Part shown: positions 4,028 to 53,417 of the stretch, in pieces
Numbering within the stretch: the first letter of the stretch is position 1
How the letters are laid out: every line of letters begins with the position of its first letter
Assembly: GCA_903834515.1 (NCBI GenBank)
Contig: CAILJM010000039.1
Location: forward strand, 10,600 to 74,599
DNA: 64,000 bases
Reading direction: 5' to 3'
DNA from: an uncultured Actinomycetes bacterium
GTDB taxonomy: Bacteria; Actinomycetota; Actinomycetes; Nanopelagicales; Nanopelagicaceae
Program-made: the position numbers and the translations under genes
The notes under the pieces: generated by a model
Told to the model about the DNA's origin: nothing
What the model saw: only the letters and a program-made list of their open reading frames with translations
The model's database searches: none

Positions 4028-4365
4028 TTTTCGGAATTGGTATCGATGTCGTCAATATCGCAAGATTCGAAGAGTCACTGCTGCGTACGCCTTCACTCAA
4101 GGGCCGTCTCTTCAAGGGTGCAGAACTAGAGCGCCCGATTCACTCACTTGCTGCGCGATTTGCGGCAAAAGAGGCGATCGCAAAGGCGATGGATTCCAAG
4201 GAGAATTTCCATTGGCAAGATGTCGAGATCATCAATCTTGCGACAGGAAAGCCAACCTTCCAACTAAGCGGCACCACCGCAGATTTTCTCGCGGGCAAGC
4301 AGGTTCATCTCACACTTTCGCATGATTCAGGAATCGCATCAGCAATGGTGGTGATCGAGGAATGA
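4024..4365 (+). CDS. acpS: holo-[acyl-carrier-protein] synthase
   Basis: MIFGIGIDVVNIARF is the canonical AcpS N-terminus. I moved the start from the 4000 ORF start to ATG 4024, which forms an ATGA overlap with the PAP2 stop. Confidence 0.85.
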   Translation: MIFGIGIDVVNIARFEESLLRTPSLKGRLFKGAELERPIHSLAARFAAKEAIAKAMDSKENFHWQDVEIINLATGKPTFQLSGTTADFLAGKQVHLTLSHDSGIASAMVVIEE

Positions 4366-5474
4366 GCGAGCACCGCGCCTACGTTGAGATAGACCTCACG
4401 GCAGTCGAAGAGAACATTCGCACTATTGCGAGTAATACCGATGCTCAGATATTGGCAGTGGTTAAAGCCGATGCATATGGACATGGACTTGTAGAAGTTG
4501 CTCGAACCGCCCTTGCCTCTGGTGCAACATGGTTAGGTACGGCGCTGCTTGAGGAAGCGCTCCAACTGAGAGCATTTGGCTTAAGCGGATCTATCTTGGC
4601 GTGGCTCACCCCACCGGGTGATGACTTTGATGAAGCGTTGAGAGAGAAGATTGATATCTCAATCTCTTCCCTGGCAATACTTGAGGAAATTCTCGCCGCG
4701 GGTGAGAGAACAGGGATCACACCGCGCGTACATATTGAAGTTGATACCGGAATGACACGTGGTGGATTTCTTGAGGAATGGGATCCATTCTTACTTCGCT
4801 TACAAGAAGTTAAAGATTCACTTCATATCGTCGGATTCTGGACCCACTTCGCGCGAGCGGATGAACCTGATTCAGATTTCACCGATCAGCAATTGATACT
4901 TTTTAATGTCTTGCTCAATTCACTGCAGAGCCAGGGCATCTATCCAGAGATCATCCACGCTGCTAATTCTGCGGGCGCTATCGCGCACCCAGGTTCGCAT
5001 AAGCAGATGATTCGTCTGGGAATCGCAATGTACGGTTTGAGCCCAGATGTTGGACATATGGGTGGATCAGAGAAGCTTGGCTTGCGGCCGGCCATGAGCA
5101 TCAAAGCAAAATTGGTAAATGTGAAGAGCGTGCCCGCTCTCTCTCGGGTTGGTTACGGCGGAATGGGCGTTACAGATATGGATACCAAACTCGGGATTGT
5201 CTGTATGGGTTATAGCGACGGGCTTCCCCGTCGTGCTGATGCAACAGCCGGCGTCTCCTACAAGGGTGAACTTGCTCGACTCATTGGGCGCGTCTCAATG
5301 GATCAATGTGTGGTCGATCTTGGGCCAGATTCCACCGCCCTTGCCGGCGAGTACGTCACCGTGATTGGCGAAGATGGATTTAGCGCCGATGATTGGGCTA
5401 GTGCGGCCGGCACTATTAATTATGAAATAACCACACGGATTGCCTCGCGATTGCCTAGGATCTACCATCGGTAA
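4362..5474 (+). CDS. alr: alanine racemase
   Basis: 370 aa. The PLP-lysine motif VVKADAYGHG is present, and there is an ATGA overlap with acpS. Confidence 0.92.
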   Translation: MSEHRAYVEIDLTAVEENIRTIASNTDAQILAVVKADAYGHGLVEVARTALASGATWLGTALLEEALQLRAFGLSGSILAWLTPPGDDFDEALREKIDISISSLAILEEILAAGERTGITPRVHIEVDTGMTRGGFLEEWDPFLLRLQEVKDSLHIVGFWTHFARADEPDSDFTDQQLILFNVLLNSLQSQGIYPEIIHAANSAGAIAHPGSHKQMIRLGIAMYGLSPDVGHMGGSEKLGLRPAMSIKAKLVNVKSVPALSRVGYGGMGVTDMDTKLGIVCMGYSDGLPRRADATAGVSYKGELARLIGRVSMDQCVVDLGPDSTALAGEYVTVIGEDGFSADDWASAAGTINYEITTRIASRLPRIYHR

Positions 5475-5512
5475 GTAGTCATCCATTCAGCGCTGAAAAG
5501 GAGTAAATCGAG

Positions 5513-6289
5513 TTGTCCTCTCATGCAACATCGCTTCTCTCGGTGGAATCGGTTTATGTTCATTTCGGTGGCCTTAAAGCACTTTCAAATATTCACTGTG
5601 AAATCAACGCTGGTGAGGTTGTTGGCCTAATCGGGCCAAACGGCGCTGGTAAAACGACCCTCTTTAATGTTCTTTCAGGCCTAGTTAAGCCAACTTCGGG
5701 TCAGCTCTCCCTTGAAGGGATGCAACGCCCCTGGCTTGAGCCACATGAATTAGTTGAGCAAGGGATTGCCAGAACGCTCCAAGGTGTGGGTTTATTTGGC
5801 GACCTCACTGTTTTGGAAAATGTCATGATTGGTGCCGAAATTCATGCAAGAGCTGGTCTTGCGCGTGCACTATTTGGTGCGAACAAACAGAGCGAGAATG
5901 AATTACGACGACGCGCGCAGATCGCCCTAGAAAATACTTATTGCGCCGATCTTGCAGATCGAAGAGCAGATTCCCTCCCATATCCCATCACTAAACGTGT
6001 AGCAATTGCGCGGGCTTTAGTGAGTAATCCGAAATTACTTCTTCTTGATGAGCCCGCAGGCGGGTTGGGAGTTCAAGATATTGAATGGATGAAGGGATTG
6101 ATACGAAATATCAGAGGCACTACCTCTGTTCTGATCGTTGAACACCATATGGATGTAGTGATGAGTGTCTGCGACCGCATCTATGTCCTTAACTTCGGCG
6201 AACTTATAGCCGAGGGAACTCCCGAGCAGGTACGTGAAAATCCAGCGGTTGTCGCGGCCTATCTTGGTAGTCATGCTGGTGCGCAATGA
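5513..6289 (+). CDS. livG: branched-chain/hydrophobic amino-acid ABC transporter, ATP-binding protein (LivG type)
   Basis: 258 aa with a TTG start. Walker A is GPNGAGKTT, the signature region precedes LLLLDEPAGG, and the LivG-type C-terminus (NPAVVAAYLG) is present. Confidence 0.85.
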   Translation: MSSHATSLLSVESVYVHFGGLKALSNIHCEINAGEVVGLIGPNGAGKTTLFNVLSGLVKPTSGQLSLEGMQRPWLEPHELVEQGIARTLQGVGLFGDLTVLENVMIGAEIHARAGLARALFGANKQSENELRRRAQIALENTYCADLADRRADSLPYPITKRVAIARALVSNPKLLLLDEPAGGLGVQDIEWMKGLIRNIRGTTSVLIVEHHMDVVMSVCDRIYVLNFGELIAEGTPEQVRENPAVVAAYLGSHAGAQ

Positions 6290-6996
6290 CGCTAGTTGTT
6301 CAAGGTTTAGAAGTGAAGCATGGAGCAATCTCTGCGATATCTGGCCTTAGTTTTACTATCCGCAAAGGTGAGCTCGTAACCATCATTGGAAGTAATGGCG
6401 CAGGGAAGACAACCCTTTTGCGTGCGCTCTCTGGTTTGCTACCCATAAGCCACGGCGAGATTTCCTGGAACGAAAAAACTTTGATTGGAAAACGCCCTGA
6501 GGAACTTGTGCGCCGAGGAATAGTTCATGTCTCTGAAGGCAAAGCTGTAATTCCTGAATTAACTGTGAGCGAGAACTTGCAACTGGGTGGGATCTGGCGA
6601 AAGGATCGATCCGATGTTGCTGCCGCCACTGCGGAGGTCATCGAGCTATTCCCGAGATTAGGCGAGCGACTTTCGCAAGGAGCAGACACGCTATCGGGTG
6701 GCGAACGTCAGATGCTTGCCATAGGCCGCGCGATGATTTCTCGTCCAGAGTTACTTCTCTTAGATGAGCCATCCCTTGGGCTTGCACCCCTGATTATCGA
6801 CCAAATATTTAGCGCAATAGATGCACTTCGACATCGCACAAATCTCACTGTTGTATTGGTTGAACAAAATGCGATCTCTGCACTTCGAATTGCGGACCGG
6901 GGAATTATTATTAATTTAGGAAGACACGTGACCACGGGGACGCCTTCGGAGCTACTCAATGACCCAGCCCTCCGCGCTGCATACTTGGGGTATTAA
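6286..6996 (+). CDS. livF: branched-chain/hydrophobic amino-acid ABC transporter, ATP-binding protein (LivF type)
   Basis: 236 aa. Walker A is GSNGAGKTT, the signature is LSGGERQ, the Walker B region is LLLLDEPS, and the C-terminus is AAYLG. There is a 4-nt overlap with the upstream gene. Confidence 0.85.
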   Translation: MTLVVQGLEVKHGAISAISGLSFTIRKGELVTIIGSNGAGKTTLLRALSGLLPISHGEISWNEKTLIGKRPEELVRRGIVHVSEGKAVIPELTVSENLQLGGIWRKDRSDVAAATAEVIELFPRLGERLSQGADTLSGGERQMLAIGRAMISRPELLLLDEPSLGLAPLIIDQIFSAIDALRHRTNLTVVLVEQNAISALRIADRGIIINLGRHVTTGTPSELLNDPALRAAYLGY

Positions 6997-7892
6997 TGAA
7001 TACATTCTTCAGCACGATACTTGTCGGGATAAGCAGCGGGGCGATCTATTCCCTGATGTCACTCGCGTTGGTTTTAGTGTGGCGCTCTACTCGAGTCGTA
7101 AATTTCGCAGCCGCTGGTCAAGCAATCCTCTCCACATATATTGGTTATGAAGCCATGAGCGCGCTGCACAACTATTGGCTCTCGCTCCCAGTTGCACTTA
7201 TCTCAGGAGCCTTGATCAGCGCCGTCATTGAATCCTTCATCATGCGCCCACTTGCAAAACGCACTCAAGGAACGGCGGTGGAGTCAATTGCCCCAGTGAT
7301 TGCGACTCTTGGCATTCTTGGATTAATTCGAAGTCTTGTCGGCCTCATGTGGGGAAATACTTTTTTGCAATACACCTCACCATTGAGCAGCAAGGGCTTC
7401 ACGGTGGGGCACACGACGATTCCATTTTCACCGCTCAATGCTGCGATAGTTGTGGGTGCCGCCATTGTTTTGCTCATCTTCGCTCTTATTTTTCGTTTTA
7501 CCCGCCTCGGTCTTTCACTCAGGGCTGCGAGCTTTCAACCGGAAATTGCACGACTATCAGGAATTAGAGTGGATCGAATTCGTACCGTCGGTTGGGCATT
7601 TGCAGGCGCCGCAGGAGCCGTCGCTGGCGCTCTTGTTACTCCAACGTCTTATCTATCTCCCAACTCCCTGGACTTGTTGTTAGTGAGTGGATTCGTTGCG
7701 GCTGTTATCGGAGGACTCGAGAGTTTGATTGGTGCCGTTGTAGGAGGTTTGGTTCTTGGCCTCGGTTTCGCATTCATTCTGCAGTACATCGGAAGTTCGG
7801 TGACTTTCAGTGCGGCTTTCATTATTTTAATCCTCGTCCTGATCGTGCGTCCTCAAGGAATATTTGGCGCGAGGAGTACCCGTGAAGCTTAA
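6996..7892 (+). CDS. livH: branched-chain amino-acid ABC transporter permease (LivH type)
   Basis: 298 aa, polytopic and hydrophobic, in the expected position in a Liv-type operon. Confidence 0.8.
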   Translation: MNTFFSTILVGISSGAIYSLMSLALVLVWRSTRVVNFAAAGQAILSTYIGYEAMSALHNYWLSLPVALISGALISAVIESFIMRPLAKRTQGTAVESIAPVIATLGILGLIRSLVGLMWGNTFLQYTSPLSSKGFTVGHTTIPFSPLNAAIVVGAAIVLLIFALIFRFTRLGLSLRAASFQPEIARLSGIRVDRIRTVGWAFAGAAGAVAGALVTPTSYLSPNSLDLLLVSGFVAAVIGGLESLIGAVVGGLVLGLGFAFILQYIGSSVTFSAAFIILILVLIVRPQGIFGARSTREA

Positions 7893-8877
7893 GCAAATCC
7901 TCGCTCCGTTGAGAAGCGCTTCGCCTCGAATGAGAATTTTGCTCTCGGTTGCGATCGGCGCACTATTGCTCTTTGCAAGTGGTCATGTTGATGAACTCCG
8001 TTCTTATCAAGGGGCGCAAGTAGCAATTTATGCGATTGCGATATCTTCGATCGTTTTACTTACTGGATTCTCTGGTCAGATCTCTCTAGGTCATGGCGCG
8101 CTGATGGCAATCGGAGGTTATGCCGCTGTATTGGCGCAGATCCATTGGCACCTTCCTTACCCATTGACATTCTTGGTAGGCGGCGCAGCCGGTGCTGGTG
8201 CTGGGTATTTATTAGGAATAGCTGCTGCGCGATTGCGCGGACCTTATTTGGCAGGAACCACACTCGCACTTGCTGTTGGACTACCTTCACTTGCGAATCA
8301 ATTCCATATCCTCGGGGGAGAGCAGGGATTGAGTTTCGATATTGGTACTGCGCCAACGTGGATCGGAAATGACTTTTCGCAGTACCGATGGTTCTTTTGG
8401 GTCGCCGTGGTACTCGCCCTCGCCGTTTATTGGCTTTTAAGGAATTTGTTATCAACTCGTTATGGAAGGCGGTGGAGAGCACTTCGCTCTAATCCGACCG
8501 CAGCGGCACTTGCAGGCATCAATGTCGCTCGGGCAAAAGTATTGGCATTTACGCTCAGTTCTTGCGTTGCAGGCCTTGCTGGCTCGTTATTCGCCATGCT
8601 TCTTGGTTTGGTTGCGCCACTGGCCTTTACCTTGACCCTTTCCTTTACCTTGGTAACAGGTGCGGTGCTTGCGGGAGTGAGCAACCTCGGGGGTAGCATT
8701 GTTGGCGCAGTGGTTTTGGTTTCAATCCCAGAGCTCTCGAACGCGATCTCATCGCACTTCGGAGGATCTGAGAAGGTAACTTCAAACCTTCCTGGTGTCA
8801 TCACGAGCGTGCTCCTGATTGCAACGGTTCTCTTAGCCCCCAATGGGCCAAAGTTCCCTACACGCAGACACCAATAA
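7864..8877 (+). CDS. livM: branched-chain amino-acid ABC transporter permease (LivM type)
   Basis: 337 aa and polytopic, with the GQISLGHGALMAIGGY motif typical of LivM. The start is uncertain: ATG 7864 overlaps livH by 29 nt, and GTG 7882 is an alternative. Confidence 0.8.
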   Translation: MARGVPVKLKQILAPLRSASPRMRILLSVAIGALLLFASGHVDELRSYQGAQVAIYAIAISSIVLLTGFSGQISLGHGALMAIGGYAAVLAQIHWHLPYPLTFLVGGAAGAGAGYLLGIAAARLRGPYLAGTTLALAVGLPSLANQFHILGGEQGLSFDIGTAPTWIGNDFSQYRWFFWVAVVLALAVYWLLRNLLSTRYGRRWRALRSNPTAAALAGINVARAKVLAFTLSSCVAGLAGSLFAMLLGLVAPLAFTLTLSFTLVTGAVLAGVSNLGGSIVGAVVLVSIPELSNAISSHFGGSEKVTSNLPGVITSVLLIATVLLAPNGPKFPTRRHQ

Positions 8878-46270: not shown

Positions 46271-47134
46271 TTACAAACCAATCTTGCATGCTGATTTACG
46301 GACTGAGAGTGCCTGATCAGCAGCTGACTTGATTGTCTGTGCCTGAGTTGGTTGGTTAGCAATCGCTTGGTTGTAGCGAGTTGTCATTGAATCAACCTGA
46401 GCCTGAGCACTTGTGAGCTTATTCTGGAAGTTATTAGGGACCTTCTGAAGGTTCGCAATATCTTTATTTCCGCTATTTACTGCAGTGTCATAGCTTGCAT
46501 AAGCGCGAATCCAGTTTCCAAAGTTCTGCACACTGACATCAGGATTGCTTAGCGCACTTATTGGGCTATTTTCCCAGCCTGCAATTTGGGTAGCGGTGTA
46601 CTTCGCAGCAAGAATGACCTTGGTCGCGTCGCGTTGCTTGCCCGCGTTATCACGCTTTGCAGTTACTTCTGCGATATGGGTAGTGATCGCAGAAATTGCC
46701 GCATCGATACCAGTCACCTTGATAGGGACTGATGGCTTCACGGTGTGGTCATAGCCAACGATGTACTGCTTTGTCTTGGTCGCTGCAATCTCTTGATTGA
46801 GGACATCGATTGAATGCTTTGAAGCATCAATTGAGGCTTTAATAGCAGTGAGAGTAGAAGTCTGTGATGTTGTAAATCCGTCGTACTCACCCTTAGCTGT
46901 TGCATAGGCAGTTCCTGCCGAGATGCAATCGGCGGTGACCCAGGTAAGCCCTGCAGGTGTTCCAGCTGGGTTAGTTCCACAGGTGTACTTGGTGCTTCCA
47001 ACTGTCTTCTTCGCCTTCGCTGGGGCGCACTTGGTGCCCTGCTTGACGACCGCTGCATGGGCTGGGGTGATCCCCGAAAGCGCGAGCGCGGCAACTGCAA
47101 GAACAGGAGCCAACTTTCTGAAGTGCTTTGCCAT
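46271..47134 (-). CDS. secreted protein of unknown function
   Basis: 287 aa with a signal peptide (ITPAHA/AV). A Cys-containing N-terminal module (GTKCAPAKAKKTVGSTKYTCG...LTWV) is followed by long Ala/Thr/Gln-rich segments predicted to be helical. Confidence 0.6.
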   Translation of the reverse strand: MAKHFRKLAPVLAVAALALSGITPAHAAVVKQGTKCAPAKAKKTVGSTKYTCGTNPAGTPAGLTWVTADCISAGTAYATAKGEYDGFTTSQTSTLTAIKASIDASKHSIDVLNQEIAATKTKQYIVGYDHTVKPSVPIKVTGIDAAISAITTHIAEVTAKRDNAGKQRDATKVILAAKYTATQIAGWENSPISALSNPDVSVQNFGNWIRAYASYDTAVNSGNKDIANLQKVPNNFQNKLTSAQAQVDSMTTRYNQAIANQPTQAQTIKSAADQALSVRKSACKIGL

Positions 47135-47338: not shown

Positions 47339-47411
47339 GTCCCAGTAGCTCAGTGGATAGAGCGACCGCCTCCTAAGCGGTAGGCCACGGGTTCAACTCC
47401 CGTCTGGGACA
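47339..47411 (+). tRNA. tRNA-Arg (anticodon CCT)
   Basis: The acceptor stem is GTCCCAG/CTGGGAC with discriminator A. The D-loop is AGCTCAGTGGATAGAGC, the anticodon loop is CT-CCT-AA, and the T-arm is GGGTTCAACTCCC. No CCA is encoded. Confidence 0.9.
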
Positions 47412-47430
47412 CAAACGTCTGGAGCAGTTT

Positions 47431-49125
47431 TTACACGTTATTTGAGAGAAGTAGCCCACTGAAAATAATATAAATAAGGGCCCCCAAAACCACGACGCCG
47501 AGGATTCGATAGGCCTTAACCCCGTACTTCGTTACTCGCCAATCTTTGGCCCCGTCCTTTCCAAATAAAGTGAGTAATTTAAGAATCAAGCCAGGAATAC
47601 TCAGAATGACAAAACTCAATAAAACATAGGTTCGTGCCGATGGATAACGATTTTGTACGACTCTGGCTAAGAAATAACCAACGATTGTCATCGCCAACAT
47701 TTCAATGATTCCAGTCGGCATCCATTTTTGAACTGCGGCCGATTTAGGGAATCGATCTTCAAAAATACCCATGATGAGAGGTAGCGCGAAAAGCAGGACT
47801 CCGATCGCCAGCTCTGCGGAGATTCCTATAAATTTTCCTGCGATGGTTGCGAAAATCCCCACCTTGAAGGCAGTCGCTAAAATTTGTTGGAAGATCGAGC
47901 GTTCTCGGTATTGTGGCTGCAACTTTGCAAGGCGATTAGGGAAAAACTTGAGTGAGATATCTTCGCCAGCAAATCGGGGAATAATTAATCCGGCAGCCCA
48001 AAATCCCACGGTGCTTGCATGCACGGTGAGAGGGAGTTGAAGCCCTGATAATCCAGGAAGTCCTAAGACAATTTGCTCGACCACCCAACCGGTGAGGATG
48101 CTTGCAAGCGCATAATCGGTAATGCGCTCCCAAAGAGATGTGAAATCCCAAACTGCTCGACGCAATGGGCGAAATGCGCTCGCCAGTATTGCTGGGCTAA
48201 ATGCTAGGAGGGAAACCCCAGCAACGGTGAGGGCTTCATTCAAGCTTGTGATATTTCCCGCGAATAGAATCGCAAGTGCGAAGGAGAGGCCGGCAAGAAG
48301 GCCGGCAAGTGCATCTATGACTCCCAGTGCCATCATCGAGATAATAATTAATAGTGAGGGCGGGAGTGCTTCTTGATGGTTTGCTCTCGTTGCAACAAAA
48401 CCTAATGCGAGAGAGATTGGATAAAGGGCAATCGCAAACGGCCCGAAGAGAGAGCGAAGGTAATTTCCGTCAGAGACGATTCTTGTGATGAGGGGTGAAA
48501 ACCCGGAGATAACAACGGCCGAATGCGTAAAGAACCCATCGACACGTTGAGTTGCTGGCCTTTGCCAGGCATTAGCTTTATCGCCCCGCCCAAGTTGAGT
48601 ACCCGCTACCAACGCGGTCCCCTTCGAAAGCTGAGCCAGGTATCCCTGTTGTGATGAAGTTTGTGTTGCAGAATTTTCCTCGCTTGTACCGATCTTTGTC
48701 GAAAGAGCCCCTGCCCCAGTTGCCAGAGTGAGCGCTGCGAAGGCAATAATTGCAGTGTCGGTAGTTCGCTTAGGGTTTGAGAGCGGGTTGTATGGTGGGA
48801 GTTCTTCTCGAGTACTCGAAGCATCAAGTTTCTTTTGAGTAATGAGCGCAGTGAGATCTGGACAAATATTATCCCAATGGATTACTCCATATGTGTCTTT
48901 GCAGAAAAGAACGCTTTTGGTAAAAGTAGATTGATTCATTCCCGTAATCTGGACATCAATGCTCTTAAAACCCGGGGAAGTCGAATTTGGAATTTGTATA
49001 TTCAACTCCTTGGCATCTGCCTCGGTAATCGTCGAGTACAGAGTCGATGTTGGAACTTCTGCGGCCTGAGCGAGGGTTGAGAAATTAATTGCAATAAAGC
49101 TAAGGAGCAAGATTCTCTTCATCAT
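47431..49125 (-). CDS. large polytopic membrane protein of unknown function with an N-terminal exported domain
   Basis: 564 aa. It has a signal peptide (TLAQA/AE), a soluble domain of about 100 aa, an anchor helix, a Ser/Thr/Gln linker, and then about 10 TM helices. Its start forms an ATGA overlap with the stop of the upstream 668-aa gene. Confidence 0.65.
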   Translation of the reverse strand: MMKRILLLSFIAINFSTLAQAAEVPTSTLYSTITEADAKELNIQIPNSTSPGFKSIDVQITGMNQSTFTKSVLFCKDTYGVIHWDNICPDLTALITQKKLDASSTREELPPYNPLSNPKRTTDTAIIAFAALTLATGAGALSTKIGTSEENSATQTSSQQGYLAQLSKGTALVAGTQLGRGDKANAWQRPATQRVDGFFTHSAVVISGFSPLITRIVSDGNYLRSLFGPFAIALYPISLALGFVATRANHQEALPPSLLIIISMMALGVIDALAGLLAGLSFALAILFAGNITSLNEALTVAGVSLLAFSPAILASAFRPLRRAVWDFTSLWERITDYALASILTGWVVEQIVLGLPGLSGLQLPLTVHASTVGFWAAGLIIPRFAGEDISLKFFPNRLAKLQPQYRERSIFQQILATAFKVGIFATIAGKFIGISAELAIGVLLFALPLIMGIFEDRFPKSAAVQKWMPTGIIEMLAMTIVGYFLARVVQNRYPSARTYVLLSFVILSIPGLILKLLTLFGKDGAKDWRVTKYGVKAYRILGVVVLGALIYIIFSGLLLSNNV

Positions 49126-51128
49126 GGCGCAACCGATCTAAGAGATACTTGAATTCTCTGGCCAATGAATAAATTATGAAGTGAGATATGCAGAAGATTG
49201 CTTCCAGATGTCCCACCGTGATCGAAATTGACTGTTTCAAATACTGGAGCTGGTATCACGGTAGAAATTCCAGTGATTCCTGACATTTGATATGTTGGAA
49301 TTGGCTCTGCCGAAAGTAGTGGGCGCACGGCATTCATCTGTGACCTCGTTGGCCTAGGAGTGGGAGTAGGGGTTGGAGTGGGAGTTGGAGTGGGAGTGGG
49401 GGTTGGAGTGGGAGTTGGAGTGGGAGTTGCGATTGCAGTTGGTGCCACTTTGTTGTAAATGACAATCGGGATTTGGCTCTTCTTTCCGCAATCGGCGAGA
49501 AAGGCGACTGAGACGGCGTACTTCGTTCCAGGGGTTAGATTTACGAGAGATCCATCCCAGTCAGGGCTTGTGAAACCAAAAGGAAAGCCTGATGGATAAA
49601 GGATTTCTGGCCCATAGAAGCGGATTTTGCCAACACCAGTGAGGTCCCAAGAGAGCCGCGCTGTCGTGCTTCCCGCTTCGCCTGGGTGAAAGAAGAGTTC
49701 ATTAATAATGACAGGACATGGATCTGGCGGGACCGTCGGAGTTGGAGTCGGAGTCGGGTGTAACGGTTCCCTCATGAGAACAGGCGTTGGAGTTGATCTT
49801 GGGGTTGCGGTTGATGTTGGGGTTGATGTTGGGGTTGATGTTGGGGTTGGCGCCGTGATGGTGATTGTGAACGAACCAGAGGAAGTTTGTGGAGTTGACG
49901 AGAGTGAATCAGTCACACTGATTGTAAAAGTAGTGCTGGAAGTGAGAGCAGTAGGCGTTCCGTGGATAAGTCCATCTGTCGCATCTAACGTCAGCCCTGA
50001 TGGGAGCGTGCCCGTCAAGAGCGTAAAGGTGATCAGGCCAGAGCCTCCAGTGGCCGTTATTGGTCTGAAAGAGAGTCCGACATTCTGAATTGCGGAGGTA
50101 CTTGCGATTGCTGTCGTTGCGACGAGGAGTTCGTAGTAATTGAAGGAGTTCGAGAGTGTCGCGGTTTGCGAATCGGGATTCACCACCGATACTGAGTAAG
50201 TTCCAGCGGCTGCAGCCGAGTTGATACACGTGATAGTTGTTGAATTAAGCGTAGTAATCGAGCATGAGTGCGCGCCGACGGCTACCGTCGCACCAAGACG
50301 AAAATTTGATCCCGTTATCGTGATTGACATCGAGCCAGTTGTAAACCCACGAATCGGTGTGATGCTTGAAATTGTAGGAGTCGGCCAAGGAATGATCTGA
50401 TCGTGAATGATATGCGTCGACGCTCCAAAGGTTACTGCGCTTAGCCCATAGATCGAACCACGCACTATTGAGGAATCGCCTGTGGTTACAGCGGTGCCGC
50501 CAATGATGTTGCCAGGAAGATCCGTATTTGCGCCGAAGGTGAATGCAGCACCGGCTGTCCAATATATATGTGATGGCTGGGCGCCATTGATAAAAGTCAC
50601 CTTTGTCTGCGCCACTACATTCATTGCAACGGTACTTCGAAAAATAAAGATTGAGTCAAAATTGCCGCCGCCATCGAGGGTGATATTTCCAGCGATGCTC
50701 ATTGCCGTACCTGCTGCCGGACCATAGATTCCAGGAGTGAGCGTTCCTCCTGAGAGACTAGTTGCGGTCGGTGTCTCAACCAGTGAATTGATGAGCGCCA
50801 AAGTTTCTGCGACATGGGAGAGAGCGGTGGAGGCGGTGACCGTCGAACTTTCAATCGCTCCAAAGCCTGCATTGGTAAGCGCGAGAGTTTGATCGCCATC
50901 AAGTGCGGCGGGGGAGGATGCAGCCAATAACGGAGCGGTTCCAGTGATTGCAGGAGTGGCACCTAAGACAAAAGCCCCACCGACGATCAGGGAGTAATCC
51001 GCGGCGGTCTGGAGATTAACGTCTGCACTTGTTGCGGCAAAAGATGGGATTACAGGGATGCTTTGCACGAGAAAACACCCTGCAATCACCATCGTCAAGG
51101 CCCTTAATGCGACCCTTTTGATATTCAT
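49122..51128 (-). CDS. secreted multidomain protein: DUF3494 (ice-binding-like) + IPT/TIG + Ig-like + FN3-like, with Pro/Thr linkers
   Basis: 668 aa with a signal peptide. The DUF3494 signature is LTPGIY...ITLDGGGNFDSIFIFRS....INGAQPSHIYW..GAAFTFGAN..L.GNII. The IPT-like part is ITITGSNF..GATVAVG...C. The Ig-like part is GTLPSGLTLDATDGLIHGTP. The linkers are TPTS repeats and (TP)12. No LPXTG motif or TM tail is present. Confidence 0.75.
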   Translation of the reverse strand: MNIKRVALRALTMVIAGCFLVQSIPVIPSFAATSADVNLQTAADYSLIVGGAFVLGATPAITGTAPLLAASSPAALDGDQTLALTNAGFGAIESSTVTASTALSHVAETLALINSLVETPTATSLSGGTLTPGIYGPAAGTAMSIAGNITLDGGGNFDSIFIFRSTVAMNVVAQTKVTFINGAQPSHIYWTAGAAFTFGANTDLPGNIIGGTAVTTGDSSIVRGSIYGLSAVTFGASTHIIHDQIIPWPTPTISSITPIRGFTTGSMSITITGSNFRLGATVAVGAHSCSITTLNSTTITCINSAAAAGTYSVSVVNPDSQTATLSNSFNYYELLVATTAIASTSAIQNVGLSFRPITATGGSGLITFTLLTGTLPSGLTLDATDGLIHGTPTALTSSTTFTISVTDSLSSTPQTSSGSFTITITAPTPTSTPTSTPTSTATPRSTPTPVLMREPLHPTPTPTPTVPPDPCPVIINELFFHPGEAGSTTARLSWDLTGVGKIRFYGPEILYPSGFPFGFTSPDWDGSLVNLTPGTKYAVSVAFLADCGKKSQIPIVIYNKVAPTAIATPTPTPTPTPTPTPTPTPTPTPTPRPTRSQMNAVRPLLSAEPIPTYQMSGITGISTVIPAPVFETVNFDHGGTSGSNLLHISLHNLFIGQRIQVSLRSVAP
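49356..49427 (-). repeat. (ACN-CCN)12 coding microsatellite, a (Thr-Pro)12 linker
   Basis: The plus strand reads (AGT/GGT)(GGG/TGG/AGG) repeated 12 times. There is an internal duplication of about 30 bp (49371-49400 versus 49401-49430). Confidence 0.9.
49811..49846 (-). repeat. three tandem 12-bp units encoding a PTST linker
   Basis: GTTGATGTTGGG is repeated three times on the plus strand. This corresponds to TPTSTPTSTPTST in the 668-aa protein. Confidence 0.85.
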
Positions 51129-51145
51129 TTCACATTTTCGATTGA

Positions 51146-51337
51146 TTACTTATTTGCAGAATCTACTTTAATGACATCTGCATGCACCTTGTCAGCCGCA
51201 TCAGAAATTGATGCTGCAACATTTCCAACAATCTCTTTCGCTTTATCTTTTGTATCAGAGATGAGAACTTCTGCAGCATTTTTCAATTCTTCTTTTGCTG
51301 CATCTAGATGGTCATGAACTTTATTGTTCTGTTCCAT
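51146..51337 (-). CDS. small hydrophilic helical protein (LEA/ElaB/CsbD-like composition)
   Basis: 63 aa rich in Lys/Asp/Ala/Glu (KDKAKEIVGNVAASISDAADKV), with no TM segment and no Cys. It is preceded by an AT-rich 122-nt spacer and ends 17 nt upstream of the 668-aa gene. Confidence 0.45.
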   Translation of the reverse strand: MEQNNKVHDHLDAAKEELKNAAEVLISDTKDKAKEIVGNVAASISDAADKVHADVIKVDSANK

Positions 51338-51459: not shown

Positions 51460-52050
51460 TCATGGTCGTAACGTTGCAACAACTACATATCGCTTGGGAG
51501 CAGAACCAATAAATGTAAATGGATAACATGTTGAAAGAGTAAGCGTCGCAATTTTTGTGGGAACAATTACGGTTCGATCGTTTTGATCGACGATTCGGAT
51601 TCGCTCGACCTTATAATTAAAAATTCCATCTTGAGTCGTAATGAGTATTGATGAACCAAGTTTTACTTTGCCTAAATTTGAAAAGACCGTATCTCTATGA
51701 CCAGATAAAACAGAGTTATCAATAACGCCAGGCAGCACACTCCCAACGTAATGACCAACTCCTTCTTTGAGTTCTTGAGTGTCAGTACCTTGAAAGATAT
51801 TCACGGTCTTCTTAATTGATGGGATATTGATCGTCCCAAGAAATGTTCCGATCGGCACCGATGCGCTCTCACGAATGGTGCTAACTTCATTTTGAAGCCA
51901 GATGGCCTGTGCCGATGGGAGCAAGTCCTTATCTTGTTCTTGCGCCGAACTGTAAATTTGAACTGCCGATACGCCAGCTACCGCAAGCCCCCCGACCACG
52001 AATGTGATCGAGAGGATTGCTGTGACGGTCAGTCTGACCCTTCTGGACAT
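51460..52050 (-). CDS. sortase (small single-TM type, class D/F-like)
   Basis: 196 aa with an N-terminal TM anchor. The catalytic His is in LSGHRD, the Cys is in TLSTCYP, and the Arg is in KRYVV. Confidence 0.85.
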   Translation of the reverse strand: MSRRVRLTVTAILSITFVVGGLAVAGVSAVQIYSSAQEQDKDLLPSAQAIWLQNEVSTIRESASVPIGTFLGTINIPSIKKTVNIFQGTDTQELKEGVGHYVGSVLPGVIDNSVLSGHRDTVFSNLGKVKLGSSILITTQDGIFNYKVERIRIVDQNDRTVIVPTKIATLTLSTCYPFTFIGSAPKRYVVVATLRP

Positions 52051-52070
52051 GGCTCTTGGTAAGTAACGAG

Positions 52071-53417
52071 CTACTTAACCAAAACCTTACGAGTTCCGAA
52101 GCCAAAGCCTCCTACGAGTACAAGTGCTCCACCCAACACGAGCATGAGATTCCATGGAGTTGAGGTCTTGGGCAACTTTCCACCAGTTGTAGTTGGTGTG
52201 TGTGTCGCCGTGACGGTTGGGCTGGCAACAGGAGTCGGAACTGCAACCCGCGCCGTGACTCCAATGTCGTAATTTGTTCGAGTGACGGTCACATTGTCAC
52301 CGATCCCAAGTGTGATAGTTCCTCCACTACTAATAGGACCACTCCAGACTCCTCTGTAACCACTTGTGGGAGTTTCAGTTAGAACATAGGTTCCGACCGG
52401 AAGTGTGTATGGACGCCCAATTGTGCCGACGCCAGTTAGTGGACTATCAGCTACCTCTAGTCCATTGTGTTTAACATGGATGACAAAGGATGATGCGGTT
52501 GCAGTCCCTTGATACTTGTTTACAACAACCTTCACAACATGAAGAGTCGCGTAATGGACTACAGATGTTGAAGTGGCGGAAGGGGCAGCAGTCGAACTTA
52601 CTGATGTTGCTGAGGAACTTGCTAACGGAGTTGCCGTTGCCGATGTTGTGGAAGCAGAAGTTGGTGTGGCACCCGAAGTGGATGTCACAACAGGAGCTGG
52701 AGTTGCGCAACTGTTATTCACAATTGTGGTCCCGCCAAGCGTCACAGCCCCCGTTACCGCAACCAATTGACCATTGACTGTTGATCCTGCACCAGTACTA
52801 ATGGATGCTTGAGCAATCACATGTCCAACCATCGTCGAGCTTGTGCCAAGAGTTGCAGAACTACCGATCTGCCAAAAGACATTACAGGCTTGTGCGCCGC
52901 GGACAAGTGTGACGGTGCTCGAAATTCCTGTCACAAGAGTTGAGTCTGCGCGAAAGACAAATACCGCGTTCGGATCGTTTGCTCCATCCAGGATCACGTT
53001 TCCTGTGATCTGAAAAGTCCCGTTGCTATATGCCCCAGGCAAGAACGTTCTATCAACACCAAGTTCAACACCTGTTGTGGCGCCACTGTGGTTATCTGCG
53101 AGTGCTGTTGCCGCAGATGTAAGTGCGCTGATTGAAGCACCGCCGAGAGTTACCGCACCTGAGGGCGATATAGAACCTGTCGGAGCGGTGGCACCACCAA
53201 CTCCAATCTCACTACCGGCCGTGCCAGTTATTCCACTTGGCGTAGCACTGGTCACAGCGGATTGAGCTAGGACGCCATACGAACTGGCAGTACCCAAAGT
53301 AAGAGGTGTAGTTGAAGCGTTTGCCGACCCAGGCAAGAGATTAATGAGTACGGCAGCAACTGTAAAAGTGAGAGCTAATTTCTTAATAAGTGGCGCAAAT
53401 TTTCTATTGCTGTCCAT
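52071..53417 (-). CDS. cell-wall-anchored DUF3494 (ice-binding-like) protein with a prealbumin/Cna-B-like domain and an LPKTS sorting signal
   Basis: 448 aa with a signal peptide. The DUF3494 signature is SYGVLA.SAVT......ITG, LPGAY, ILDGANDPNAVFVFRA, GAQACNVFWQIGSSATLG and VGHVIAQASI. A Ser/Thr/Ala linker and a beta-sandwich (HVVKVVVN...GTYVLTE) follow. The C-terminus is LPKTS (nt 52161-52175), a hydrophobic helix and RKVLVK. Confidence 0.8.
   Translation of the reverse strand: MDSNRKFAPLIKKLALTFTVAAVLINLLPGSANASTTPLTLGTASSYGVLAQSAVTSATPSGITGTAGSEIGVGGATAPTGSISPSGAVTLGGASISALTSAATALADNHSGATTGVELGVDRTFLPGAYSNGTFQITGNVILDGANDPNAVFVFRADSTLVTGISSTVTLVRGAQACNVFWQIGSSATLGTSSTMVGHVIAQASISTGAGSTVNGQLVAVTGAVTLGGTTIVNNSCATPAPVVTSTSGATPTSASTTSATATPLASSSATSVSSTAAPSATSTSVVHYATLHVVKVVVNKYQGTATASSFVIHVKHNGLEVADSPLTGVGTIGRPYTLPVGTYVLTETPTSGYRGVWSGPISSGGTITLGIGDNVTVTRTNYDIGVTARVAVPTPVASPTVTATHTPTTTGGKLPKTSTPWNLMLVLGGALVLVGGFGFGTRKVLVK

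What the first reader, a model, noticed from the sequence alone, without database searches (positions are those of the whole stretch)
47431..51128. An anchorless DUF3494-IPT-FN3 protein is translationally coupled to an uncharacterised 11-TM protein
The 668-aa protein has a signal peptide but no LPXTG motif, TM tail or lipobox. Its stop codon overlaps the start of the 564-aa polytopic gene (CC-ATGA-TGAAG on the minus strand), which implies roughly stoichiometric co-expression. The membrane protein carries its own exported N-terminal domain of about 100 aa. One reasonable hypothesis is that it acts as the membrane receptor, anchor or export partner for the large secreted protein. The last 75 or so residues of the 668-aa protein, after the (TP)12 linker, would then be the docking module.
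Basis: inference. Interest (0 to 1): 0.6.

Follow-up and report, generated by a model that had tools for sequence, protein, structure and literature searches.

The report
Split-domain membrane anchor for surface proteins
A secreted surface protein and the multi-pass membrane protein encoded directly behind it each appear to carry one part of a single small Ig-like domain, so the two most likely snap together outside the cell to tether the surface protein; I found no description of this way of anchoring surface proteins, which occurs in the most abundant freshwater bacteria.

Summary
A 668-aa secreted protein (Ice_binding/DUF3494, TIG, He_PIG) has no sortase signal and no C-terminal TM helix. 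Its TGA overlaps the ATG of a 564-aa polytopic protein with no Pfam, NCBIfam, PDB-sequence or Foldseek match.

The pairing is conserved. In 28 related loci (mostly Nanopelagicaceae genomes), very different upstream surface proteins all end in one ~40-aa tail (consensus ..A.V.V.GLKPGQKIKVTV..; here LHISLHNLFIGQRIQVSLRSVAP). In 27 of the 28 the stop overlaps the membrane gene's start.

In more distant Actinomycetota the same ~470-aa membrane domain is the C-terminal end of 700-7000-aa surface proteins. An intact 8-stranded Ig-like domain often sits just before the first TM helix. The membrane protein's exported N-domain matches strands 4-8 of that domain. The partner's tail matches strands 1-3, with weaker statistics.

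Best reading (about 0.65): one Ig-like domain is split between two genes and reassembles outside the cell, docking the passenger on a membrane anchor. The docking itself is inferred, because co-folding could not be run.

The invariant intramembrane Asp and the cytoplasmic motifs suggest the TM domain does more than anchor. What it does is unknown.

This scan reached the same reading earlier on another freshwater actinobacterial genome (e1-4357640). I found no published description.

The parts
49122..51128 (-). 668-aa secreted passenger protein: signal peptide (aa 1-31), Ice_binding/DUF3494 (aa 46-237), TIG (aa 251-331), He_PIG (aa 338-425), unassigned beta domain (aa ~470-560), (TP)12 linker, C-terminal tail
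   Evidence: ORF. Pfam E-values 3.8e-24, 4.6e-13 and 7.6e-09. No LPXTG and no C-terminal hydrophobic segment.
49356..49427 (-). (Thr-Pro)12 linker (aa 568-591). Inferred to be the wall-spanning spacer, in the same position as the Pro/Thr-rich region before LPKTS in the neighbouring sortase substrate.
   Evidence: Coordinates computed. The same passenger / PT-linker / anchor-signal layout is seen in L001 paralogues P0091 and P0094.
49125..49250 (-). C-terminal tail module (aa 627-668, APVFETVNFDHGGTSGSNLLHISLHNLFIGQRIQVSLRSVAP). Candidate strands 1-3 of a split Ig-like domain, and therefore the docking element.
   Evidence: Aligns in register with the tails of 27 other partner proteins. In the own genome, a scan of ORF ends with a loose tail pattern returned 16 ORFs; the only ones with a tail-like end are the two partner genes. 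The tail profile aligns to columns 6-32 of the intact domain of fused relatives, P=0.0037.
49122..49125 (-). ATGA stop/start overlap between the two genes
   Evidence: Overlaps of 1-8 nt occur in 27 of 28 tail-bearing loci, with a 2-nt gap in the remaining one.
47431..49125 (-). 564-aa polytopic membrane protein. It belongs to an unannotated family: 820 clusters at 50% identity among 1.84 billion representatives.
   Evidence: No Pfam, NCBIfam, PDB-sequence or Foldseek match.
48781..49059 (-). Exported N-terminal domain (aa 23-115) behind a cleavable signal peptide (aa 1-22). Candidate strands 4-8 of the split Ig-like domain, with the conserved FCKD...CPDL Cys pair.
   Evidence: The N-domain profile aligns to columns 47-89 of the intact domain, P=1.9e-5. 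The best hit of the N-domain HMM falls in the C-terminal half of the membrane-proximal Ig domain in 36 of 42 fused proteins. AlphaFold gives only two strands here, with 10-residue-block mean pLDDT of 52-78.
47434..48792 (-). Membrane domain (aa 112-564): Y-x-P motif plus TM1, an ~80-aa cytoplasmic loop with GRGD, then the helix bundle. Invariant residues are D182, D271, R319/R323 (RPLRR), W332/R334/D337 (WERxTDY) and R384/E388 (RFxxED).
   Evidence: Alignment A1, hydropathy and positive-inside analysis, AlphaFold pTM 0.72.
48262..48354 (-). Helix-break-helix (aa 258-288) with invariant D271-x-x-A-G at the break. Probably a re-entrant hairpin entering from the outer face.
   Evidence: DSSP gives H258-270 and H272-288. 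The topology argument comes from the positive-inside rule. This is an inference.
51146..51337 (-). 63-aa Lys/Asp/Ala-rich small ORF upstream of the pair, with a promoter-like site at 51439-51412. The pair may be transcribed from here.
   Evidence: Consensus match only, not evidence of function.
51460..52050 (-). Class D sortase (196 aa)
   Evidence: NCBIfam NF058671, 194.7 bits (cut-off 140); Pfam Sortase 2.3e-30.
52071..53417 (-). 448-aa DUF3494 paralogue with an LPKTS + hydrophobic + RKVLVK sorting signal. This is the sortase-anchored counterpart of the 668-aa protein.
   Evidence: It is 31% identical to the 668-aa protein over the DUF3494 domain.
47339..47412 (+). tRNA-Arg(CCT) abutting the 3' end of the membrane gene. 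Likely the edge of a variable region, although the island boundaries were not mapped.
   Evidence: The gene family is patchy: 37 of 251 family genomes.

Best explanation
The two genes encode a two-part surface-display system built on a single Ig-like domain that is split between them.

Proposed mechanism:
1. The 668-aa passenger is exported by Sec. It ends, after a Thr-Pro spacer, in a ~40-aa three-strand tail that is unlikely to form a stable domain on its own.
2. The 564-aa protein is inserted in the membrane. Its small N-terminal domain faces outwards and corresponds to the remaining five strands of the same domain.
3. Outside the cell the tail completes the sandwich by fragment (beta-strand) complementation. 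The passenger is then held non-covalently on a multi-pass membrane anchor, with the Thr-Pro linker reaching through the wall.
4. The stop/start overlap keeps the two halves made together.

Shown here by computation:
- The pairing and the overlap are conserved.
- The tail is a portable module on unrelated passengers.
- Relatives have the passenger fused directly to the membrane domain.
- The N-domain is homologous to the C-terminal five strands of an intact domain in fused relatives.
- Neither the membrane domain nor the system matches any described family.

Inferred:
- The physical docking itself.
- That the tail supplies strands 1-3 (moderate statistics).
- That fission, not fusion, was the direction of evolution.
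- That the main role is anchoring.

The membrane domain carries an invariant Asp in an intramembrane hairpin and invariant charged motifs on the cytoplasmic face. It probably does more than hold the passenger, but what it does is unknown.
For: 1. Conserved coupling. All 28 tail-bearing loci have an upstream same-strand gene; its stop overlaps the membrane gene's start by 1-8 nt in 27, with a 2-nt gap in one.

2. Portable tail. The passengers are unrelated: DUF3494-TIG here; Ig repeats plus an Ala/Lys coiled coil in L003; seven FN3 plus He_PIG in G117; Flg_new-like repeats in L040; low-complexity sequence in L036. All end in ..A.V.V.GLKPGQKIKVTV.. or the variant found here.

3. Positional linkage. 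The motif's DNA pattern gives 17 hits in 251 genomes (control 0), and 16 lie directly upstream of a membrane-family gene. The remaining one is an intergenic chance match. In the own genome, a loose tail pattern at ORF ends returned 16 ORFs, and the only ones with a tail-like end are the two partner genes.

4. Fusions. P0056, P0057 and P0060 are DUF3494 / PT linker / membrane domain. P0089 is TIG-like x2 / membrane domain. The three fusion loci examined lack a coupled upstream gene. A profile search finds 820 clusters, many of them 700-7000-aa proteins that end in this domain and carry FN3, lectin, FG-GAP, Big_3_5, BNR, MBG or DUF4082 passengers.

5. Split domain. In fused relatives an Ig-like domain precedes TM1; AlphaFold gives 8 strands with 10-residue-block mean pLDDT of 73-88, and Foldseek finds only Ig-like sandwiches for it. 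N-domains of the split forms align to its columns 47-89 (hhalign P=1.9e-5) and tails to columns 6-32 (P=0.0037). Concatenated tail plus N-domain aligns as one stretch over HMM positions 4-90, and the scores add up (L026: 9.2 + 16.2 -> 24.8 bits). The N-domain HMM lands on the expected half in 36 of 42 fused proteins. The tail HMM lands on the expected strands in 6 of the 25 proteins with any hit, where I estimate about 0.6 by chance.

6. Tree. All 63 split forms lie on one side of the TM-domain tree. All intact-Ig fusions lie on the other side, once the single row labelled fusedIg on the split side (P0117) is corrected to a split form. Fusions without the Ig domain are nested among the split forms.

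7. Anchor swap. The L001 paralogues P0091 (tail) and P0094 (LPKTS) are 44% identical through passenger and linker and differ only in the anchor signal.

8. Charge match. Tail net charge and N-domain net charge are anticorrelated (Spearman -0.63, n=26, not corrected for phylogeny). The two pairs in this genome are +2/-3 and +8/-17.
Against: - No interface was predicted or measured. Two-chain co-folding is not available in these tools.
- The tail-to-strand homology is only moderately supported. Single tails score E about 1-10 against the intact-domain HMM, and the tail HMM finds the expected place in a minority of fused proteins.
- The window's own pair is the most diverged. N-domain and concatenate score E about 3-4 against the fused-form HMM, so the reading reaches it through its alignment with the other split forms.
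- One locus (L043, in a genome that is 80% complete) has an N-domain but no coupled partner.
- The tree is a FastTree with midpoint root, and the key branch has support of 84.
- The heavy conservation of cytoplasmic and intramembrane residues is not explained by passive anchoring.
- Lys-rich tails could alternatively bind anionic wall polymers.
Confidence: 0.65

Rival explanations
1. Docking occurs as described, but the membrane domain is primarily an active device and not an anchor. It would be a force or ligand sensor, or a transporter whose state depends on the docked passenger. That would make it a prokaryotic functional analogue of adhesion GPCRs, in which a non-covalently held ectodomain controls a polytopic domain.
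For: Invariant D271 sits at the break of an intramembrane helix-break-helix. Invariant RPLRR, WERxTDY, RFxxED and GRGD lie on the predicted cytoplasmic face, and they are conserved from split forms to distant fusions. Ten to twelve helices are far more than tethering needs. GAIN/MAIN domains show that non-covalent tethering by a cut beta-sandwich is used for force-dependent release or signalling (bioRxiv 10.64898/2026.05.12.724683).
Against: There is no cytoplasmic output domain and no conserved neighbouring signalling gene. There is no structural similarity to any receptor or transporter. Nothing here tests activity.
Confidence: 0.2
2. The membrane protein is a sorting enzyme, in the manner of exosortase, rhombosortase or sortase. 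It would recognise the tail as a C-terminal sorting signal, cleave it, and attach the passenger covalently to a lipid or wall polymer.
For: The tail behaves like a portable sorting signal on unrelated proteins and always sits next to its cognate polytopic gene. The membrane domain has many invariant residues.
Against: The tail has no TM helix, unlike all signals of that class. No invariant Cys, Ser or His is present (one search lists only P, D, A, G, R, W, L and E). The invariant charged residues are predicted to be cytoplasmic. In hundreds of relatives the passenger is one polypeptide with the membrane domain, which needs no sorting step. The N-domain's homology to half an Ig domain already accounts for the tail.
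Confidence: 0.07
3. The tail is a wall-binding or lipid-binding module that works on its own. Gene adjacency would then reflect co-regulation only, with the membrane protein having an unrelated role such as transport.
For: Most tails are strongly basic (+4 to +8), which would suit binding to anionic wall polymers. The membrane protein's function is unknown.
Against: The window's own subfamily has near-neutral tails (0 to +3). Passenger-to-membrane-domain fusions and the exact positional linkage argue for a physical link. The N-domain is a truncated Ig domain lacking exactly the strands the tail resembles.
Confidence: 0.06
4. Artefact: this is really one gene, broken in the assembly by a frameshift or read through by programmed frameshifting.
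For: Fused relatives exist.
Against: The break is at the same place in 28 loci from many genomes, including closed ones. Each downstream gene has its own start codon and its own conserved signal peptide (M.RK.LL...A|).
Confidence: 0.02

Closest known systems
GAIN domains of adhesion GPCRs and microbial MAIN domains (Brogan & Rudner, bioRxiv 10.64898/2026.05.12.724683)
   Same: A membrane- or wall-proximal beta-sandwich is divided into two chains that stay together non-covalently. It tethers diverse adhesion or enzyme passengers to the cell, and in aGPCRs the tethered part is a polytopic membrane domain. Fused relatives here have a near-invariant Ser (39 of 41) in the turn where the split forms are broken, and a near-invariant His (40 of 41).
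   Different: Here the division is written in the genome as two genes with two signal peptides. It is not made by autoproteolysis. The domain is a ~100-aa, 8-strand sandwich cut 3+5, whereas GAIN-B is a 13-strand fold cut before the last strand. The HX(S/T) motif is absent: the residue at -2 is M/L/V. MAIN domains were reported mainly in Bacillota with sortase or similar anchors, and the paper's main text contains no occurrence of 'Actinobacteria', 'Actinomycetota' or 'polytopic'. No sequence or fold match was found.
Donor-strand complementation in chaperone-usher pili and in the WxL/Elr system of Enterococcus (bioRxiv 10.64898/2026.10.17.759780)
   Same: An incomplete Ig-like fold is completed by strands from another polypeptide. 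In WxL systems an invariant C-terminal attachment module carries variable payloads, and a membrane-anchored protein supplies the complementing element.
   Different: Those systems donate one strand and polymerise subunits into fibres, with a sortase anchor at the base, and are confined to Bacillota. Here three strands are donated once, to a polytopic membrane protein, in Actinomycetota. No family match was found.
Sortase/LPXTG anchoring (class D sortase and the LPKTS substrate in the same cluster)
   Same: Same overall layout: passenger, then a Pro/Thr-rich spacer, then a short C-terminal anchoring signal. Paralogous DUF3494 passengers use either route in the same locus.
   Different: There is no LPXTG motif, no TM helix, no transpeptidase and no covalent link to peptidoglycan. 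The anchor is a membrane protein.
Engineered split Ig-like pairs (SpyTag/SpyCatcher from the CnaB2 domain); named from my own knowledge
   Same: A short C-terminal beta-strand tag completes an Ig-like domain carried by the partner.
   Different: SpyTag is man-made and locks with an isopeptide bond. Nothing here indicates a covalent bond. The comparison was not tested.

Membership tests
Sortase substrates (LPXTG-type cell-wall sorting signal) | LPXTG-like motif followed by a hydrophobic helix and a basic tail at the C-terminus | tested here: not met
   The 668-aa protein has only LALTN at aa 82, and no hydrophobic segment beyond aa 31. It has no NCBIfam sorting-signal hit. The 448-aa neighbour has weak, below-cutoff NCBIfam matches to sorting-signal models (TIGR01167 15.5 bits vs 15.9; NF058670 16.5 vs 32) and a visible LPKTS + hydrophobic + RKVLVK end.
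Bacterial lipoproteins | Lipobox [LVI][ASTVI][GAS]C at the end of the signal peptide, with a conserved Cys | tested here: inconclusive
   IAGC at aa 15-18 fits the pattern. However, the hydrophobic region continues to SFA|A at aa 31, and the Cys is Phe in the L001 orthologue.
Pfam PF11999 Ice_binding (DUF3494), PF01833 TIG, PF05345 He_PIG | Score above the Pfam gathering threshold | tested here: met
   86.0 bits (cut-off 28.7), 49.4 (cut-off 20.9) and 36.3 (cut-off 24). Ice binding itself was not tested.
   No Pfam hit at E<=0.01 for aa ~470-560.
Any characterised transporter or membrane-enzyme family (for the 564-aa protein) | Sequence or fold match to a curated family or a solved structure | tested here: not met
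   Pfam and NCBIfam: no hits. PDB profile search: no hits at E<=10. Foldseek vs PDB: best E 0.086 with TM<=0.18 for the window's model; for the relative's model only the Ig-like domain hits.
Exosortase / archaeosortase / rhombosortase sorting systems | C-terminal signal made of motif + TM helix + basic cluster, and a polytopic enzyme with invariant Cys/Arg/His or Ser/His | tested here: not met
   No TM helix in the tail. No invariant Cys, Ser or His among 33 aligned family members.
GAIN/MAIN autoproteolytic domains | GAIN-B-like 13-strand sandwich with an HX(S/T) motif before the last strand | tested here: not met
   The intact domain of fused relatives has 8 strands in ~100 aa. The conserved turn reads [MLV][HFY]SxP with no His at -2. 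The split lies after strand 3. Whether the fused forms self-cleave was not testable.
Fold complementation (donor-strand type) systems | One partner has an incomplete Ig-like fold | tested here: met
   The N-domain matches only columns 47-89 of the intact domain and falls in the expected half in 36 of 42 fused proteins. AlphaFold gives it 2 strands with 10-residue-block mean pLDDT of 52-78, against 8 strands at 73-88 for the intact domain.
Fold complementation (donor-strand type) systems | The other partner supplies the missing strands | tested here: inconclusive
   The tail profile aligns to columns 6-32 (P=0.0037). Scores add up on concatenation. There is positional enrichment (6 of 25). Single-sequence E-values are not significant.
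Fold complementation (donor-strand type) systems | A physical complex of the two chains | not testable with these tools
   Structure prediction takes one natural chain only. No multimer prediction and no experiment was possible.

The most novel reading that the evidence does not exclude
The ~470-aa polytopic domain is a new class of bacterial surface-coupled transducer or transporter. Its ectodomain would be held only by a split or self-cleaved Ig-like domain. Pulling off or loading the passenger (for example by attachment to ice, particles, prey or phage) would be sensed through the invariant intramembrane Asp and relayed by the cytoplasmic RPLRR / WERxTDY / RFxxED face. Fused relatives would self-cleave at the near-invariant Ser in the same turn, so that the two-gene form is a genetically fixed version of an autoproteolytic tether. 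This would be a prokaryotic counterpart of adhesion-GPCR logic on an unrelated fold.
Probability: 0.15. Interest if true: 0.9.

Novelty: new variant of a known kind. Interest (0 to 1): 0.72.

Why it matters
Monoderm bacteria are known to hold surface proteins by sortase, lipid anchors, single TM helices or wall-binding modules. This would add a further route: a portable ~40-aa tail that completes an Ig-like domain on a dedicated multi-pass membrane protein.

The family is unannotated although it has hundreds of sequence clusters. In other Actinomycetota it ends giant adhesin-like proteins of up to about 7000 residues.

It occurs in acI/Nanopelagicaceae, the dominant freshwater bacterioplankton, whose streamlined 1.3-1.5 Mb genomes can carry up to three copies. 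It sits in what looks like a variable, surface-related region, of the kind thought to matter for phage and grazer interactions.

A naturally split, apparently orthogonal tag/receptor pair could also serve as a protein-display tool. The conserved intramembrane and cytoplasmic residues point to an activity that nobody has looked for.

Tried and rejected
- Known-family assignment of the 564-aa protein failed everywhere: Pfam, NCBIfam, PDB sequence profile, and Foldseek with two independent models.
- Two-chain co-folding is not possible with structure prediction. Instead I folded a natural relative with the intact domain.
It worked with a narrower alignment, A2.
- Literature searches found no description of this pair or of the membrane domain: Nanopelagicales/sortase/cell surface, Planktophila/genomic island/DUF3494, and strand complementation/Actinobacteria.
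- A conserved third gene was sought and not found. The neighbours differ between loci, and two similar-sized unknown proteins near L003 and L005 are unrelated.
- A Shine-Dalgarno argument for obligatory coupling was dropped. No SD-like motif precedes the membrane gene, but none precedes the 668-aa gene either.
- The pattern hit in G324 without a membrane gene proved to be an intergenic chance match on the wrong strand.
- P0117, flagged by my script as an intact-Ig form inside the split clade, is an ordinary split form.
- GAIN/MAIN membership was considered and rejected. Strand number, cut position and catalytic motif all differ.

Full report
**1. The observation**

On the minus strand lie a 668-aa ORF (49122-51128) and a 564-aa ORF (47431-49125). 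The junction reads GCGCC-ATGA-TGAAG, so the stop and the start overlap by 4 nt.

The 668-aa protein:
- Pfam assigns Ice_binding/DUF3494 (aa 46-237), TIG (aa 251-331) and He_PIG (aa 338-425).
- A perfect (TP)12 run (aa 568-591) precedes the last 77 residues.
- It has a signal peptide, no LPXTG-like motif near its end, and no hydrophobic segment beyond residue 31.
- IAGC at aa 15-18 loosely resembles a lipobox. The Cys is Phe in the 47%-identical orthologue of locus L001, and the hydrophobic region runs on to SFA|A.

The 564-aa protein:
- It has no Pfam or NCBIfam hit.
- It consists of a cleavable signal peptide, an exported ~95-aa domain, a first TM helix, an ~80-aa loop, and a bundle of further helices.
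- With the N-domain outside, every Lys/Arg-rich loop falls inside the cell. This only works if the helix-break-helix at aa 258-288 is a hairpin that enters and leaves on the outer face (inference).

Surroundings:
- Upstream on the same strand are a 448-aa DUF3494 paralogue ending in LPKTS + hydrophobic + RKVLVK, a class D sortase (NF058671, 194.7 bits), and a 63-aa ORF with a promoter-like site.
- tRNA-Arg(CCT) abuts the 3' end of the membrane gene.

**2. The pairing is conserved and the partner carries a portable tail**

Homologues of the membrane protein (90 clusters; one is named Candidatus Planktophila) were followed into their contigs and into genomes of the same family.

- In 28 distinct loci an upstream same-strand gene ends 1-8 nt inside the membrane gene's start, or in one case 2 nt before it.
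- The upstream proteins are unrelated to one another:
  - DUF3494-TIG-He_PIG in the window;
  - a shorter DUF3494 protein in L001;
  - a 1210-aa protein with Ig-like repeats and a long Ala/Lys coiled coil in L003;
  - a 1481-aa protein with seven FN3 and four He_PIG matches in G117;
  - Flg_new-like repeats in L040;
  - low-complexity sequence in L036.
- All of them end in the same ~40-residue module: a short h-x-I-x-P strand, then ..A-x-V-x-V-x-G-L-K-P-G-Q-K-I-K-V-T-V.. and a few basic residues.
- The window's subfamily has the variant ..LHISLHNLFIGQRIQVSLRSVAP, which aligns in register with the others.
- In the window's own 1.48-Mb genome, a scan of ORF ends with a loose tail pattern returned 16 ORFs. 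The only ones with a tail-like end are the two partner genes, on contigs 39 and 16. A third membrane paralogue is cut by a contig end.
- A degenerate DNA pattern for KPGQ[KR][IV][KR][IV] gave 17 hits in 251 family genomes, against 0 for the reversed control. Sixteen lie directly upstream of a membrane-family gene on the same strand. The seventeenth is an intergenic hit on the wrong strand, between the RNase E and obg genes.
- The family is patchy: 37 of 251 family genomes, 11 of 18 genera. This fits accessory surface gene content.

**3. Natural fusions**

- Three close relatives (39-41% identical to the window's protein in alignment A1) have a DUF3494 domain, a Pro/Thr linker, and then the membrane domain directly, without the small N-domain. 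A fourth has two TIG-like domains instead.
- The three fusion loci I examined have no coupled upstream gene. One of them keeps a DUF3494-LPNTS sortase substrate next door.
- A profile search of 1.84 billion representatives found 820 clusters (557 at E<=1e-30). A large share are proteins of 700-6000 aa in which this ~470-aa domain is the C-terminal end.
- Their passengers include FN3, legume-lectin-like, FG-GAP, Big_3_5, BNR, MBG and DUF4082 domains. No Pfam model covers the membrane part.
- Named carriers:
  - Dactylosporangium aurantiacum (WP_156089605.1, annotated only as 'MBG domain-containing protein');
  - MAGs of Solirubrobacteraceae, Gaiellaceae, Acidimicrobiales, Microbacteriaceae and Glaciihabitans.
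- The family is rare overall. It was found in 4 of 400 other genomes sampled across the phylum, one of them with a 7096-aa open frame.

**4. A domain split between two genes**

In many fused relatives an Ig-like domain sits just before TM1. An example is ..[74 protein letters not shown]...

Structure of the intact domain:
- I folded such a relative from a Gaiellaceae MAG (L062) with an alignment. The first 104 residues form eight strands with 10-residue-block mean pLDDT of 73-88.
- Foldseek finds only Ig-like sandwiches for that part and nothing for the membrane part.

Profile comparisons:
- An HMM of 18 such domains was searched against tails and N-domains of the split forms, set in a background of 12,664 ORFs from the window's genome.
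  - N-domains match positions ~48-90 (E 1e-3 to 0.2).
  - Tails match positions ~4-32 (weak, E 1-10).
  - Tail and N-domain joined end to end align as one continuous stretch over positions 4-90, with additive scores (best E 1.2e-5).
- Profile-profile comparison gives the same complementary mapping: tails to columns 6-32 (P=0.0037), N-domains to columns 47-89 (P=1.9e-5).

Reciprocal test:
- The N-domain HMM, built only from split forms, places its best hit in the C-terminal half of the membrane-proximal domain in 36 of 42 fused proteins of 566-5995 aa.
- The tail HMM hits the N-terminal strands in 6 of the 25 proteins where it hits at all. I estimate about 0.6 by chance.

Interpretation:
- In the fold of the relative, the break falls in the turn between strand 3 and strand 4. 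The tail corresponds to strands 1-3 and the N-domain to strands 4-8.
- Consistent with a missing piece, AlphaFold gives the window's N-domain only two strands, with block mean pLDDT of 52-78.
- The N-domain half of this argument is strong. The tail half is moderate.

**5. Evolution**

- In a FastTree of 159 membrane domains, all 63 split forms lie on one side (78 rows, support 84).
- All intact-Ig fusions lie on the other side, once one mislabelled row (P0117, shown to be a split form) is corrected.
- Fusions without the Ig domain are nested in several places among the split forms.
- The simplest reading is one fission inside the Ig-like domain, followed by several re-fusions that bypass it. 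The root is a midpoint root, so the direction is an inference.
- In L001 two paralogous passengers are 44% identical through the DUF3494 domain, a second beta domain and the linker. They differ only at the end: one has the tail, the other LPKTS. The window has the same pair of options at 31% identity.
- Tail charge and N-domain charge are anticorrelated (Spearman -0.63, n=26, not corrected for relatedness).
- The two complete pairs in this genome are +2/-3 and +8/-17. This would keep them from cross-docking; that is an inference.

**6. What the membrane domain is**

- Across 33 diverse members the invariant residues are:
  - D182, in GRGD in the first cytoplasmic loop;
  - D271-x-x-A-G, at the break of the aa 258-288 hairpin;
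  - R319, P320 and R323 (RPLRR);
  - W332, R334 and D337 (WERxTDY);
  - R384 and E388 (RFxxED);
  - R540, and several Pro and Gly residues.
- They persist in the distant fusions.
- There is no invariant Cys, Ser or His. This argues against a sortase-, exosortase- or rhomboid-like enzyme.
- Two AlphaFold models (pTM 0.72 and 0.66; the membrane core reaches block mean pLDDT in the 90s) find no structural relative in the PDB.
- This degree of conservation is more than a passive anchor needs. I cannot say what the extra function is.

**7. Comparison with known systems**

- The logic resembles fold complementation in chaperone-usher pili and in the recently described WxL/Elr pilus of Enterococcus. 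There an invariant C-terminal module carries variable payloads.
- It also resembles GAIN domains of adhesion GPCRs and their microbial MAIN counterparts. In those, a cut beta-sandwich holds an ectodomain non-covalently.
- It is not a member of either:
  - there is no family or fold match;
  - three strands are supplied, not one;
  - the cut lies after strand 3 of an 8-strand domain;
  - there is no HX(S/T) motif;
  - the division is genetic.
- One detail may link them. In 41 fused-form domains the most conserved positions include a Ser (39 of 41) and a Pro two residues later, in exactly the turn where the split forms are broken, and a His (40 of 40+1) on strand 6 — that is, 40 of 41. The fused forms might therefore self-cleave there. 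That is a hypothesis only.

**8. Earlier notes of this scan**

After I had reached the split-domain reading, a word search showed that another agent had come to the same reading. That was for a 4029-aa protein and its membrane partner in another freshwater actinobacterium (e1-4357640). It gave me the lead to the MAIN-domain preprint. It is not independent evidence.

**9. Verdict**

- The mechanism (extracellular reassembly of a split Ig-like domain on a dedicated polytopic anchor) is well supported by comparative evidence, but it has not been tested physically.
- I found no published description.

Noticed in passing
window 51460-53417 (-): The sortase scores as NCBIfam 'class D sortase, LPxTATN-specific' (194.7 bits, cut-off 140). 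Its adjacent substrate, however, ends LPKTS-TPWN, and the L001 and L044 counterparts read LPKTSTP and LPNTSTP. This may be a distinct LP[KN]TSTP recognition motif in acI bacteria.
   Followed up: partly
own genome, contig 16 (61191-63047, -) and contig 12 (2-1174, +); loci L009, L008: This 1.48-Mb streamlined genome carries three paralogues of the membrane gene. The contig-16 copy (36% identical) is coupled by GTGA to an Ala/Lys coiled-coil protein ending ..SASIKITGIKKGSKIVIVIKKGVKK, and it has a Ser/Glu-rich insert in its cytoplasmic loop. The contig-12 copy (68% identical) is cut by the contig end.
   Followed up: partly
L042 (G473:C44) and proteins P0090, P0145, P0146, P0198, P0209, P0221, P0241: A separate subgroup of ~560-aa family members has a different small N-domain (..P.LTWERGRQQT.TLGG..). 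It seems to include its own first strands. In the one locus examined, the upstream gene with overlapping stop/start looks like a signal peptidase I (my reading of the sequence; no family search was run), not a tail-bearing passenger.
   Followed up: no
L047 (G117:C1), partner gene 4037-8482 (-): The 1481-aa partner carries a second, internal copy of the tail motif (..VTVNNIKPGQKIKVTVVEG..) about 68 residues before the terminal one. This suggests tandem duplication of the docking module.
   Followed up: no
fused relatives (alignment of 41 membrane-proximal Ig-like domains): A near-invariant Ser-x-Pro sits in the strand 3/4 turn (39 of 41 each), and there is a near-invariant His on strand 6 (40 of 41). 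The Ser lies exactly where the two-gene forms are broken. This raises the possibility that the fused forms self-cleave there.
   Followed up: partly
window 51146-51337 (-): A 63-aa Lys/Asp/Ala-rich ORF without a signal peptide lies between the sortase and the 668-aa gene. A promoter-like site (TTTTCA-16-TATAGT with an upstream TG) lies at 51439-51412. It may mark the start of the transcript for the pair.
   Followed up: no
L043 (G510:C50): A family member with a normal split-type N-domain has no tail-bearing gene upstream. The upstream ORF ends about 70 nt before the start and appears, from its sequence, to be an unrelated cytoplasmic protein (not searched against a family library). The genome is only 80% complete, so the partner may lie elsewhere or may have been lost.
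   Followed up: no
window 47339-47412 (+) and 46271-47134 (-): tRNA-Arg(CCT) separates the cluster from a 287-aa secreted, helix-rich protein of unknown family. Together with the patchy distribution of the membrane gene (37 of 251 genomes), this looks like the edge of a variable surface island.
   Followed up: no
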